A stretch of DNA of 64,000 nt. It comes from Lingula anatina. Taxonomy: Eukaryota; Animalia; Brachiopoda. The translations under genes and the position numbers were made by a program. This document shows, piece by piece, positions 3,411 through 22,545 of the stretch (position 1 is the first letter of the stretch; every line of letters starts with the position of its first letter). The notes beneath the pieces are model-generated. The model made no database searches. It had not been told where the DNA came from and saw only the letters and a list, made by a program, of their open reading frames with translations. The stretch covers positions 14,916,644 through 14,980,643 of the forward strand of contig CM120643.1 in assembly GCA_051362555.1 (NCBI GenBank), in the 5' to 3' direction.

Positions 3411-5341
3411 TTATTTCTTCTGCACTGGTAAGTAAAGCTTGAACTCTGCAGGTAGCTCGTCTTCTGAGTAAAGTCTGTCTGAGAAGTATACCCTACGGAT
3501 CCTGCAGTTTGCGTGAATCTAAAAAAAATGTTAACAAAACGAATTAGCAATTTTTTTTCAATATTGAAAGCAACAGTGCACTGGGATTTTTTTAAGCTTT
3601 TCCATCAAACTGACAGAGCAATTGTATGAAACTGACTTAAATTTCTTTGAAATCTCAAATAAAAACTAAAACTTCTTATTGATTGTGATTTTTTTAAAGA
3701 AAGAATTAGAGCAAATGTTTGTCATATCATTTTAATGCCAAAAATGTTCAAAAAATAAAAAATGAAATAAATAAATAAATAACATGCCGAAAACTCACCT
3801 GAACTCGGAGTGTCTCAATGTAGTTAGTACCATAAGCACGCCTTGTGAAATCTGAGAGGTTGAACTGGATCTGATTCCAGCCGTCGTCCAGCCTCATTGG
3901 CATCGTGCAAATGAAGGGTTTTACTCTAGTTGTGCTCTGGTAATTGCTAGCCCTAAATCTCCGCCTCACATTTTTGTCATCTAAAACCTAGAAGACGGAT
4001 TGTGATCACAAATTAGAAACAGAAAACATGCTGTTTTACTTATTTCAAAACAATGTAAAAAGTGACAACTGCTAAAATACATTTCAATAAATAATTGTTT
4101 TTTATTAATTTCAACAATATAATTATTTCAAAACCTCAATGTCACAACTTAACAAAAATTAATTACGACTTAAAACATTAAATAAACAAATATATTAAAA
4201 TGTAAACTTACCTGAACTTCAAATGTGAAATATTTCTTTAAATTTTTGATGATCATAACTAGGAAGGGAAGCTTGATTCCAAGTGTTTTCTTTGGATCCG
4301 CTGGGCATGTGATATATGTTGTGCTGCAAGGTAGATAAGAAAGGATATAAATTAATGTTGGTAACATAATGTTTCCTAATAATCACTTTCGTGAATTGAG
4401 TATAAAATCCTCAACACGTAAATTTCACTCATTTTCCCGCCGAACAATGTTTATGTATGGTAACCAATGCCACATCAATTTTAAACAAAATAACAACAAT
4501 ATGGAAATAAAGATATAAATTTTTGTTGTTATAGCCATTGCCTGACATAAATAAGCTTCTAAAAAGGGTAAATTTTTACTCTAAATCATTTAAATATATC
4601 ATTTCATGCCCGTTTGTAGGAGGCTGCCATATTGGATATACGCCATGTTCTTTGTTAGTTCAAAACCAAAATGGCGACCGCAATCAACTTCGCACTTACC
4701 TAACATTTGTTCCTACAATTTCTAACACTAGTGACTGGATGTCATTATCTGTGATTCGTTTGATGTGACCATTTCGCACCTGAAATTGAAAAGTCAATAT
4801 GTTTAAAAATAAAAATCGATTGCTGTCATCAAAATTGATCGCTGGTTAAAGTTTAAATTCAAATAAAATGAACTACTGGTTCATTTTAAATAAAGCTCTT
4901 GTAAAACACCAGCAAAATTGTTAATTGATGACAACGTGGATAAACAAGTGTTTATAAAAATAATTTGAGAAAAACATAAGGGTTATTCTTCAAACTTAAT
5001 AAGTTTAAACGATATAGGGAAGTCCATCGAATAAGCCACGGGGATTCACCACCCATAACAATCGTCGTTGCTAGTACTAACACAACATGTCTATATTCAC
5101 AATAATATATCTGAGCCGTTAAAAATGTGTAAAACTCGTTGACATATTATCCATAAGCTGAAACAACCACCCTGATCACAAGATATCTTAGAATACACCA
5201 GCCGGCTATGTTGTTGTCATCCATCACCATGGAAATACAGTGGAATCTTCAACTCACCTTTTTGTCCCAAATTTGTAGAGGTTTGCTTCCAATACTGTAC
5301 AATATTGATAAGAATCCGCTCTGGAAGGTATTCTTGAACAT
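3411..5341 (-). CDS. CFAP20: Cilia- and flagella-associated protein 20 (BUG22/C16orf80 ortholog), 5 coding exons, 190 aa
   Basis: Exons 5341-5258, 4779-4700, 4323-4212, 3987-3799, 3518-3411 (84+80+112+189+108=573 nt), all GT-AG. Translation [39 protein letters not shown]...[13 protein letters not shown] is near-identical to the known CFAP20 sequence. Confidence 0.98.
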
Positions 5342-7785
5342 TTTGAGTCTTTTTAAAGTCAGTTATAGTATATTGTTAGTCCTAATATATTCTTGTGGTG
5401 GAGCTCTCTCACACACGCTCCTCTCGCTTTGCTATCAGAGTTGTCAAGTGAGCCACAGTGTGTGTACAAATGGACTTGATTAGTTGTCATGGGTCTGTTT
5501 ACACAGCGTACGGATACAAGCGCGCGCTTTGCCGTTAGTCAATAAACGAAAAAAATTCTCAAGTTTTGTGAGTTTTTTTGTTTGAATTCTTATGAAAATG
5601 ATATTTTAAGGTAATAACTTTGTTTAGAAGGATATCGACACCAACCGAAATGAAATAATCAGTTTCCAAGGAACTTTATTACGCGCACGAATACGGTTTC
5701 CAAGCCGTAAACTGACATCCGGTAAGCTGCGTCGTGCGTGCTGCGCAGTGTACGTCACCTGGGATATGGCTTAGGTCACAATCTGATTGGCTGACGAGCT
5801 CAATAATCTATACATATGCTAATATCACTATTGTTGTTTGGCATTTCATTCTTGGGTTTTACCTCGTGTGTCGGTCACTAACGTAGCTTCAAGAGCATGG
5901 ATATTGTAAACATAAGGACACATGACACTATGATTAACGAGTACGCGATGCTTCTGCTTACTTATTCATAATGTAAATATGCGTATTATTGTTAAGAAGG
6001 AAAAGAGGAATGATGCTCTTGGCGCGACTACTAAGTGTGGTTTTATCTTAGTTACACGCAAACAAGCGCTGTAGTCGACATTTTAACTTATTCGCATTTT
6101 AGCAATTAGACCAATTACGTCCAATAGACACCGTTATCACCACTAAGCGAATATAAAAACACAGAGTGCCGTCACATCAAATAAATCGCACAATATTTTA
6201 AGGCAACATTTACTGGCTTTTAAGTGTCCGCATCTCCTTCCGTAAACGCCCAGACAGAAACGAAAACAGAGGTTTACACGATAAAAAGAAGCCGAAGGTG
6301 AATACTAAACAATTCATTGGTTACAAGTTACATTATTTTGATTGCATGACCCAGAAAGAGTACCTTAGTCAGCGGCAAGATAACAGTCTAGATAGAAAAA
6401 ACAAAACGCACCAGTTTAAGTACTTGATGTGTTGACATTTTATTGAACTGAACAACCTGTTGGAGAGGATACCTCAACAGAGAAACCTTTATCTACAATA
6501 TGCTAGGCACAGAATTGAAATTGAATTCTTTTATCTTATTTAAACACTGCAGTTTCAACCAAAAGTTTTATAACACTGAAGTATCATTGCCCCTCCTATA
6601 ACCCTTTATTCCACAAGTCGCATTTGCATACCAATAATGGCTGGGGAAATATGCACTTTGGTACAACGATTAAATTGCACTCTAAAACCAATATTTTGTA
6701 AAAATAATAATTATAATAAATAAATAAATAAAAATTAAAAAATGATACTGGATTACTGTATATGATCTTCATCATACTTGCCCATTCTAAAATTTTCATC
6801 CTTAGGCTAATAAATTATCCAAGATACTCTTGGTTGAGTCATGAGAGTTTATTAATTATTTACACACAAGACATGACCTTACTGTTTTATTGAATAATAC
6901 ATTTAATCAATGGAAGGAACATCCAAGACTCAAGCTTGCTGCAGGGTTCTTTCCATTTTCTTCATCAAAGCTTAGACAACTTCAAAAGTTAAATAAATGA
7001 ATAGTTATAATGATACTTATTATTAAACAAAACACTTCTAACTGCCTAGTAAACTTAAATGGGGTGAGCAAAAACTGGTTAGGGGGTGTGGGGTAGTTCT
7101 AATATTGCCACAAGTTCCAACTGAAAATGTTGCATTGTGGCTTTAAACTTCTATACACTGCAGAGGTATAAGAGAGAAAATCTACTCTGTGCTTTGACAT
7201 GGACACCCTTACAAGACTATGAACTATACGAGATCTAATTACAATTACAAAGTTAATACCAGCACACCCTCGTACCCCAATGTGCAGGCCACATATTCCA
7301 AGTGAAGCAGATTTTTTTCTCAACAAGTTGTTCACAAAAGTTTGAAGACTGCAGCCATTACTGTGCGATGCTCCAATCCAGCTCCCACACCTTTTGCAAA
7401 ATAAGACTTCAGAGTGGCTGAACCATTGTTACATTTGGTTATAAAGGTTAGAACCAAGAGGAGGGTAGGAAAGGGGGTTAAATGATGAAATACAGAGCAC
7501 ATTGTTCCAGTGTTGACAAACTAACCCCAGAATAAATTTGTGTCCTTCCTGGAGGCCTGTATTTGTGAACACTTTACTGATACATTTTCATGTTACTCTA
7601 AAGATAATAATAAAAAAATAATAATAATGATAAGATCCATCCAGCCACCCTTTACTGCGCCCCAGCAAAACAGTTGTAAGTCAACCAAATAGTTGGTGAC
7701 ACATTGTCGTCATTGCTTGGATCACACCAGGGGTCGTCAAAAAGACCTCGGCAATCCCTTGGCTTCCTGATTTTTGCTGCAGACT

Positions 7786-21300: not shown

Positions 21301-22545
21301 ATAATTATTTTTATACACTTGTAATTTTATTTTGCTACTGTAAAATCTGGTCATTTTTAAACTGCTCCTCTTTTGAGTCATGAAATGATATTTAAATATA
21401 AACTACATCATTCCACTACATTTAATTGTATTTTTACAAACCTTGGATGTATTTGTAATAGAAAGAGGAGATGGGTGAGGTTCTACATGAAGTGGACTTT
21501 AATCAGCTGAAGATTGAGAATGCCCAGTACTTGGAAAAGATAGACGAGAGAAACCAGGACCTCCTGAGACTTAAACTGATGGCAGGAAATACACTGCAAG
21601 TGCTCAACACATACAAGGTAAGCAATAGATGATATAATATGTCAACTCTGTAGTTACTGCCTTATTGGTATTTGGTGCACGTTTGATTTTCAGACATTTT
21701 TAACATCATGGCCATCTTTTAAGCTATGCAGTCGTTTGGAATTTATGTAGGTGGCTTTGTGTCCCAAGTTTTCTAAAAGAACTGAAAAGACCATTCTCTG
21801 ACCATTCATGGAATCAAAACAAAAGAAAAATTAATTTTTTTAAAAAAAAGGAAAAAATTAAATAAAGAAATACAAAATATTCCTCAAGCAACATTTGACA
21901 TAAGGTATCATAATTAATTGTCTTGTTATTTTCAGAAAAAACTCAGCACATTAACTCTGGAGTCAACGAGACTTAAAGCTGAAATTGCATCAAGAAATGA
22001 TCTGTTGGCCAGAATTGACAGTGAAACAGTCACCGTAGAGACGGTAATTTTATCTTTTTCCAGACTTTAGCAAAGTAGTTGGAATATATATAAAATTGAT
22101 TTAAAGAAGAGCAGTTAATATGTTCTTTTTTTCATTGTAGCAACATTGGTTGAATTGTACTACTTTCATGAAAACCTAATAATGCTCTGAAAGTCCATAC
22201 TATAAGTATTTTGTATATTACTTTACTTCTGCTTTAACATGTGTATGTGTGTGTGCATGTAAGTTAAAGCCTAAAAAAATCTTATCAACTGGTTTCCAGG
22301 ACCGAGCAGGTGCAGAGAAGATCAATCGCAAGCTCCGCACACAGCTTGGTGACTATCGCGTGCCAGAGGTGATGGAATATGTCCGCGAGAGGGCAGACCT
22401 GTACGAGATGCACAAGAAAGTAAAGAGCTGGGAGAGGAAGGTAGAAATTGCAGAGATGGGACTGAAGACGCACAGGAAGGCTTGGAATCAAATGCGCATG
22501 GCCAGTCACCAACCAAATCCATGGGGAGTCATGGAAACAGTTTAA
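18390..22545 (+). CDS. CFAP263: Cilia- and flagella-associated protein 263 (CCDC113), 7 coding exons, ~385 aa
   Basis: Exons 18390-18496, 18799-19102, 20217-20372, 20633-20713, 21462-21617, 21936-22043, 22300-22545 (1158 nt, in phase, GT-AG). Family motifs LTAEQKCDIA, EKLRLKN, KEEMGEVLHEVDFNQLKIEN, YRVPEVMEYV, SWERKVEIAEM. Confidence 0.93.
19176..19937 (+). mobile_element. Non-autonomous hAT derivative retaining the transposase C-terminal dimerisation domain, in CFAP263 intron 2
   Basis: Termini CAGGGTT / AACCCTA flanked by direct repeat GGAAT (19171-19175, 19938-19942). ORF 19495-19755 LYP...LVVIALVIPISHVPCERGFS...KSRSRLS...LMLLSIEGP matches the hAT dimerisation-domain pattern. Confidence 0.85.
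19999..20079. repeat. (TA)n microsatellite
   Basis: ~80 bp of pure TA repeat. Confidence 0.95.
20824..21125. mobile_element. Palindromic MITE (PIF/Harbinger-like) in CFAP263 intron 4
   Basis: ~120-bp imperfect inverted arms (GACCGCATTCACA...GCCTCCCCA / TGGGGAGGC...TGTGAATGCAGTC) with 3-bp flanking direct repeat ATA. Confidence 0.75.

What the first reader, a model, noticed from the sequence alone, without database searches (positions are those of the whole stretch)
3411..22545. CFAP20 - CK2 alpha - CCDC113 microsynteny shared with human 16q21
Seen: order and orientation are CFAP20(-), CK2a(-), CCDC113(+), with CK2a and CCDC113 head-to-head. Known: human 16q21 has CFAP20(-), CSNK2A2(-), CCDC113/CFAP263(+) in the same arrangement, and CK2 has been reported in the axoneme. 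Inference: an ancient bilaterian block of two axonemal genes flanking a kinase, possibly held together by shared cis-regulation.
Basis: partly seen in the sequence, partly recalled or inferred. Interest (0 to 1): 0.7.

Follow-up and report, generated by a model that had tools for sequence, protein, structure and literature searches.

The report
Ancient cilia-gene and kinase trio
Three working genes in this lamp-shell genome (two cilia proteins flanking the kinase CK2) sit in the same order as in humans and in one other distant invertebrate, a very old neighbourhood that is likely kept because two of the genes start back-to-back from one short promoter region.

Summary
Real and ancient, but of a known kind. 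The window holds intact, expressed CFAP20(-), CK2 alpha(-) and CCDC113(+); the CCDC113 protein differs at 1 of 385 residues from Lingula anatina's. RNA reads put the CK2 alpha and CCDC113 5' ends under about 320 bp apart. The same order and orientation recur in an unrelated lophotrochozoan-like metagenome contig (L060), and the order is listed for human and cattle; flanking genes differ in each. For the CK2 alpha-CCDC113 pair, 4 of 15 species (two urchins, two oysters) have near-consecutive accessions, 7 share a contig and 4 do not. Best reading: a conserved ancestral microsyntenic unit (Irimia 2012 type), likely held by a divergent promoter, with an RFX-like box beside CCDC113 in both invertebrates. 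Amphioxus, annelids and cnidarians remain untested.

The parts
3411..5341 (-). CFAP20 coding span, 5 exons (5258-5341, 4700-4779, 4212-4323, 3799-3987, 3411-3518), 190 aa
   Evidence: model; Pfam CFA20_dom; 3 junctions in RNA reads
7786..17686 (-). CK2 alpha coding span, 12 exons, 384 aa, with a Ser/Thr-Pro tail; 3' UTR reads reach about 6590
   Evidence: model; Pkinase; PDB CK2 alpha matches; 11 of 11 junctions; tail
17687..18120 (-). CK2 alpha 5' UTR, mostly unspliced, with a minor spliced form skipping about 17726-17976; many reads end at 18071
   Evidence: stranded RNA depth and joints
18071..18389 (.). Divergent promoter region between CK2 alpha and CCDC113; no reads at 18165-18266 in 4 of 4 runs; start codons 703 bp apart
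   Evidence: promoter function inferred
18361..18374 (+). RFX X-box-like palindrome just upstream of the CCDC113 start codon; counterpart at L060 3338-3351, 10 of 14 letters alike in the gene's sense
   Evidence: consensus recalled; binding untested
18390..22545 (+). CCDC113/CFAP263 coding span, 7 exons, 385 aa
   Evidence: model; junctions
9641..11455 (+). Passenger: 1.8 kb defective DNA transposon in CK2 alpha intron 10, short terminal inverted repeats, 7-bp flanking duplication, zf-C17orf113 ORF at 9973-10389
20824..21125 (.). Passenger: MITE-like inverted repeat (134-nt arms, 89%) in CCDC113 intron 4
   Evidence: many partly fitting reads

Best explanation
The window holds expressed CFAP20, CK2 alpha and CCDC113 genes in an order that recurs in a distant invertebrate contig and in mammals, so the trio is likely inherited from the ancestor of protostomes and deuterostomes and likely kept because CK2 alpha and CCDC113 start back-to-back from one short promoter region. 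Shown: gene models, 5' ends under about 320 bp apart, recurrence in L060 with different flanking genes. Inferred: a break in that region would cut promoter elements of an essential kinase or of an axonemal gene; a proximal RFX-like box would give CCDC113 its cilia-biased output while CK2 alpha stays broad; CFAP20 would be held more weakly, by the short gap (1-2.4 kb) behind the kinase or by elements inside the kinase gene. In vertebrates the alpha-prime duplicate kept the site and the gap widened.
For: Gene models and junctions. Stranded reads: CK2 alpha 5' end 18071-18120, first CCDC113 reads about 18290-18384. L060 has CCDC113(-), CK2 alpha(+), CFAP20(+), start codons 931 bp apart, 998 bp from kinase stop to CFAP20 start; its CCDC113 is only 67% identical to the window's, as far as annelid, nemertean and mollusc ones. 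Human and cattle order; pig list holds the trio reversed. Accessions CCDC113/CK2 alpha: Lytechinus variegatus XP_041454175/176 and 296/297, L. pictus XP_054748233/234-235, Magallana gigas XP_065934854/856-858 and XP_011433882/880, Ostrea edulis XP_055998033/021-029. Flanks differ: MMP15 and PRSS54 in mammals, an LSM gene and a Cir_N gene in the window, an ankyrin coiled-coil gene in L060. X-box-like site within 80 bp of the CCDC113 start in both invertebrates. Head-to-head pairs are the commonest and best kept conserved pairs (PMC3514665 section 7).
Against: 4 of 15 species have the pair on different contigs: Aplysia, Biomphalaria, Dreissena, Apostichopus (two involve small or unplaced scaffolds), so the link is breakable. 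The intergenic DNA of the window and L060 shows no alignment better than E 0.28. The X-box pattern has 21 sites in the 64-kb window and was 1 of 3 patterns tried. In human a 7SL pseudogene lies between the two genes and the gap is about 50 kb (recalled). CCDC113 junction reads are 0.15-0.56 of CK2 alpha's across 4 runs, not a fixed ratio. Lingula shares 217 blocks of 3 or more genes with amphioxus, so a retained triple is not rare in this genome.
Confidence: 0.6

Rival explanations
1. Neutral retention: the trio is ancestral but survives only because short gaps are small breakpoint targets in slowly rearranging lineages.
For: Gaps of 0.7-2.4 kb; hundreds of Lingula blocks shared with Lottia and amphioxus; apparent loss in several molluscs; no conserved intergenic alignment.
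Against: The flanking genes were replaced in all three lineages seen while the trio stayed; it persists in mammals; it persists in a long-branched compact genome (L060).
Confidence: 0.23
2. Ciliary regulatory unit: all three genes share RFX/FOXJ1-type control so that CK2 alpha rises with axonemal genes in ciliated cells and sperm.
For: All three are lowest in the same run, X4; X-box-like sites beside CCDC113 in both species and beside the L060 CK2 alpha start; CSNK2A1 acts at the mother centriole (PMC8072220 passages); loss of CK2 alpha-prime or CCDC113 sterilises male mice (passages).
Against: CK2 alpha varies 1.9-fold across 4 runs against 4.4- and 4.9-fold for its neighbours (tissues unknown, CCDC113 counts small); no X-box match beside the window's CK2 alpha or CFAP20 starts; CK2 consensus sites are not enriched in either neighbour (6 vs 7.9 and 2 vs 2.1 expected); CFAP20 has a nuclear role (listing).
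Confidence: 0.15
3. Chance or mistaken orthology: the resemblance to 16q21 is coincidental because the kinase is really the CSNK2A1 orthologue.
For: Exon 10 scores 95.6-101.7 bits to CK2 alpha chains and 87.6 to alpha-prime.
Against: Alpha and alpha-prime are a vertebrate duplication (recalled), so one invertebrate gene is co-orthologous to both; the trio recurs in L060; chance estimate at most about 0.01 expected cases.
Confidence: 0.02

Closest known systems
Conserved ancestral microsyntenic pairs (CAMPs), Irimia et al. 2012, PMC3514665
   Same: Unrelated neighbours kept across phyla, head-to-head, with a gap under 1 kb in the invertebrates.
   Different: Three genes, one in tandem; a broad kinase paired with an axonemal gene. 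Whether it is in their Table S2 is unknown: the supplement could not be read; CSNK2 has 0 hits in the main text.
HSPE1-HSPD1 bidirectional pair
   Same: Divergent pair with a short shared promoter region.
   Different: Those genes encode partners and keep a gap under 1 kb in human; here no partnership is shown and the human gap is wide (size recalled).
Human 16q21 C16orf80/CFAP20 - CSNK2A2 - CCDC113
   Same: Same order.
   Different: The human kinase is the alpha-prime duplicate; flanks differ; strands recalled, not checked.
Lingula microsyntenic blocks, Luo et al. 2015, PMC4595640
   Same: Same class of block of 3 or more genes.
   Different: This trio's names had 0 hits in main text and supplement, whose tables list only example blocks of more than 4 genes.

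Membership tests
CAMP (Irimia 2012) | Non-paralogous neighbours | tested here: met
   Three different Pfam families
CAMP (Irimia 2012) | Linked in four or more major taxa | tested here: met
   Pair: brachiopod (window), mammals, urchins and oysters by accession proxy, L060. Whole trio: only window, L060 and mammals.
CAMP held by co-regulation | Head-to-head orientation conserved | tested here: inconclusive
   Met in window and L060; accessions give no strand; human strands recalled
CAMP held by co-regulation | Intergenic distance under 1 kb | tested here: met
   703 bp and 931 bp between start codons; not so in human (size recalled)
CAMP held by co-regulation | Correlated expression | tested here: inconclusive
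   4 runs of unknown tissue; ratio 0.15-0.56; all lowest in X4
CAMP held by co-regulation | Conserved intergenic sequence | tested here: inconclusive
   No alignment better than E 0.28; only an X-box-like site shared
CAMP held by co-regulation | Few insulators between the genes | not testable with these tools
   No chromatin data
Genomic regulatory block | A developmental regulator with enhancers in bystander introns | tested here: not met
   None of the three is a transcription factor or ligand; intronic enhancers not tested
CCDC113 (not CCDC96) | Best match and length | tested here: met
   E 3.7e-90 vs 1.1e-09
One-to-one orthologue of CSNK2A2 | Closer to alpha-prime than to alpha | tested here: not met
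   87.6 vs 95.6-101.7 bits on exon 10; co-orthology inferred

The most novel reading that the evidence does not exclude
The trio is an ancestral cilia-regulatory neighbourhood; after vertebrate genome duplication CK2 alpha-prime stayed between the two axonemal genes and inherited their germline-biased control, which explains why its loss sterilises male mice while CK2 alpha, having left, stayed general.
Probability: 0.15. Interest if true: 0.65.

Novelty: new member of a known kind. Interest (0 to 1): 0.38.

Why it matters
It adds a concrete three-gene block spanning protostomes and deuterostomes, with a compact invertebrate version of a promoter region that is spread out in humans. That compact version is a tractable model for how a broad kinase and a cilia gene share a promoter, and it offers a positional explanation to test for the sperm-specific role of CK2 alpha-prime. 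The same human interval is an autoimmune GWAS locus with an unsettled target gene (PMC11245064 passages). Pipelines using reciprocal best hits would likely pair the invertebrate kinase with CSNK2A1 and miss the link.

Tried and rejected
No whole genome is held for this window. No RNA holder was listed by index; raw-read runs of the same species label were laid instead. Fused CK2-CFAP20 or CCDC113-CFAP20 gene models: 0 of 150 CFAP20 representatives. CFAP20 accessions in urchins, oysters or amphioxus: not obtained; 2 CFAP20 clusters looked up were singletons. Of 8 CK2 clusters, only 2 gave accession-bearing invertebrate records. Large accession distance is uninformative: three oysters related to M. 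gigas show far-apart numbers on one contig, so Lineus, Mya and Glandiceps stay open. Metagenome scan: 79 of 80 loci lack CK2 alpha and CCDC113; 5 had only 24-26% kinase hits; spliced loci other than L060 hold at most 3,459 bp upstream of CFAP20. L060's phylum was not resolved: quick tree only, long branch, no bryozoan or phoronid reference; the protein atlas gave no answer. Robert 2022 supplements: 0 hits for 5 accessions, CCDC113 and 4 GO phrases, but they use other gene ids and file 3 is cut. Earlier findings of the scan: nothing in 4 of 4 look-ups. No complex was folded, since no binding is claimed.
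Full report
1. Observation. The sequence gives three intact spliced genes: CFAP20 at 5341..3411 (-), 5 exons, 190 aa; CK2 alpha at 17686..7786 (-), 12 coding exons, 384 aa; CCDC113 at 18390..22545 (+), 7 exons, 385 aa. Pfam finds CFA20_dom in 4 of 4 CFAP20 exons scanned, Pkinase in 5 of 5 kinase exons and CCDC113_CCDC96_CC in 2 of 6 CCDC113 exons. The CCDC113 model differs at 1 of 385 residues from a protein labelled Lingula anatina, which matches human CCDC113 at E 3.7e-90 and CCDC96 at 1.1e-09. Reads from 4 RNA runs show 11 of 11 kinase, 3 of 4 CFAP20 and 1 of 6 CCDC113 junctions among the 15 of 30 joints displayed; one search adds CCDC113 intron 1.

2. The head-to-head region. 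Stranded reads place the kinase 5' end at about 18071-18120 and the first CCDC113 reads at about 18290 (one read) to 18384, with no coverage at 18165-18266 in 4 of 4 runs. The start codons are 703 bp apart. An X-box-like palindrome (consensus recalled) lies at 18361-18374; the pattern has 21 sites in 64 kb (34 strand matches against 23.3 expected), so alone it is weak.

3. Human and mammals. A published locus list gives MMP15, C16orf80, CSNK2A2, RN7SL645P, CCDC113, PRSS54, GINS3 (PMC11245064 supplement passages); a cattle table gives the same order (PMC7057717) and a pig table holds the trio reversed (PMC8227816). Strands, the roughly 50 kb human gap and the place of CSNK2A1 on chromosome 20 are recalled. 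The window's exon 10 scores 95.6-101.7 bits to CK2 alpha chains and 87.6 to alpha-prime, and the protein keeps a Ser/Thr-Pro tail, so it is best read as a co-orthologue of both vertebrate genes (duplication recalled; no tree run).

4. An independent invertebrate copy. One of 80, L060 (11,215 bp), carries CCDC113(-), CK2 alpha(+), CFAP20(+): the same order and relative orientation in 6,840 bp. Its start codons are 931 bp apart. Its CCDC113 is 67% and its kinase 86% identical to the window's; a quick tree leaves it a long branch among lophotrochozoans, phylum unresolved. A perfect match to the X-box pattern lies 79 bp upstream of its CCDC113 start, 10 of 14 letters alike to the window's site in the same sense, and another one-mismatch site abuts its kinase start (10 strand matches against 3.8 expected). 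The two intergenic regions do not otherwise align. The other 79 loci are mostly short or intronless and cannot test animals.

5. Survey by proxy. No animal genomes can be browsed here, so I compared accessions and contig lengths of CK2 alpha and CCDC113 records; that RefSeq numbers follow local gene order is an inference, and it gives no strand. Of 15 species with both records: 4 near-consecutive (Lytechinus variegatus twice, L. pictus, Magallana gigas in two releases, Ostrea edulis); 1 on the same 984,547-bp scaffold (Saccostrea cucullata); 6 on a contig of the same length with distant numbers (three oysters, Lineus, Mya, Glandiceps); 4 on different contigs (Aplysia, Biomphalaria, Dreissena, Apostichopus). 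CFAP20 could not be placed in any of them. Amphioxus, annelids and cnidarians are untested.

6. Mechanism. Shown: ancient recurrence, changed flanks, a short divergent region in two invertebrates. Inferred: interlocked promoters resist breakage, the usual cause for head-to-head conserved pairs (PMC3514665 section 7). Expression gives little: per junction per Gb, CK2 alpha 10.5-20.2, CFAP20 6.9-30.7, CCDC113 1.6-7.8 over 4 runs of unknown tissue, all lowest in X4 (from counts). That fits a broad kinase beside more variable cilia genes. CK2 sites are not enriched in either neighbour. CCDC113 links radial spoke, N-DRC and doublets and is testis-enriched in mouse (PMC11643634 passages; PMC7987202 listing and a search with no casein kinase hit). 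CSNK2A1 is at the mother centriole (PMC8072220 passages); I did not confirm CK2 in the axoneme, and recall the Chlamydomonas axonemal kinase as CK1. CK2 alpha-prime loss causes male sterility (PMC2677865 abstract). CFAP20 also rescues arrested RNA polymerase II (PMC12935552, listing only).

7. Known or new. The class is known: 795 conserved groups, and 331, 217 and 123 Lingula blocks shared with Lottia, amphioxus and Capitella (PMC4595640 supplement passages). I found no paper describing this trio as conserved in searches for CCDC113+CSNK2A2 (11 papers), the locus genes (5), CFAP20/synteny/CSNK2A2 (13) or CK2 ohnologs (2), judged from listings except where read. Irimia's Table S2 could not be seen and may hold it. 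PMC13121700 and PMC11789643 (passages) and PMC8851819 (supplement searches) added nothing specific.

8. Verdict. Observation confirmed; ancient linkage about 0.95; promoter interlock as cause 0.6; ciliary co-regulation of all three 0.15. New member of a known kind; interest 0.38.

Noticed in passing
window 23743-25626 (-): Intact 4-exon Sm gene, 124 aa, LSM domain with RG-rich tail, convergent with CCDC113; named SNRPD1 by recalled resemblance.
   Followed up: partly
window about 29350-35702 (-) and about 36085-45900 (+): A Cir_N-domain gene (LENG1 by recall) lies head-to-head with a multi-exon membrane-transporter-like gene (SLC43-like by recall; no Pfam hit on 2 exons): a second compact divergent pair.
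   Followed up: partly
window 9641-11455: Defective DNA transposon in CK2 alpha intron 10 with zf-C17orf113 ORF and 7-bp flanking duplication; a few reads on its own strand.
   Followed up: partly
window 17723-17975: Minor spliced form of the CK2 alpha 5' UTR, 1-4 reads in each of 4 runs.
   Followed up: no
window 51388-52725: Tandem array of about 147-bp units, 9 copies; other tandem duplications at 28202-28774 and 32738-33235.
   Followed up: no
window about 46050-48400 and about 26150-27000: Decayed LINE-like reverse transcriptase remnants, by eye; no Pfam hit on one ORF.
   Followed up: no
L060 8584-10719 (-): Ankyrin plus coiled-coil gene with a weak CCDC34 match (E 0.0026, below cut-off) convergent with CFAP20; possibly another cilia-related neighbour.
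   Followed up: no
P0001, P0058, P0271 records: CCDC113 is annotated twice in L. anatina, and the CK2 alpha-CCDC113 pair twice in L. variegatus, likely haplotype duplicates.
   Followed up: no
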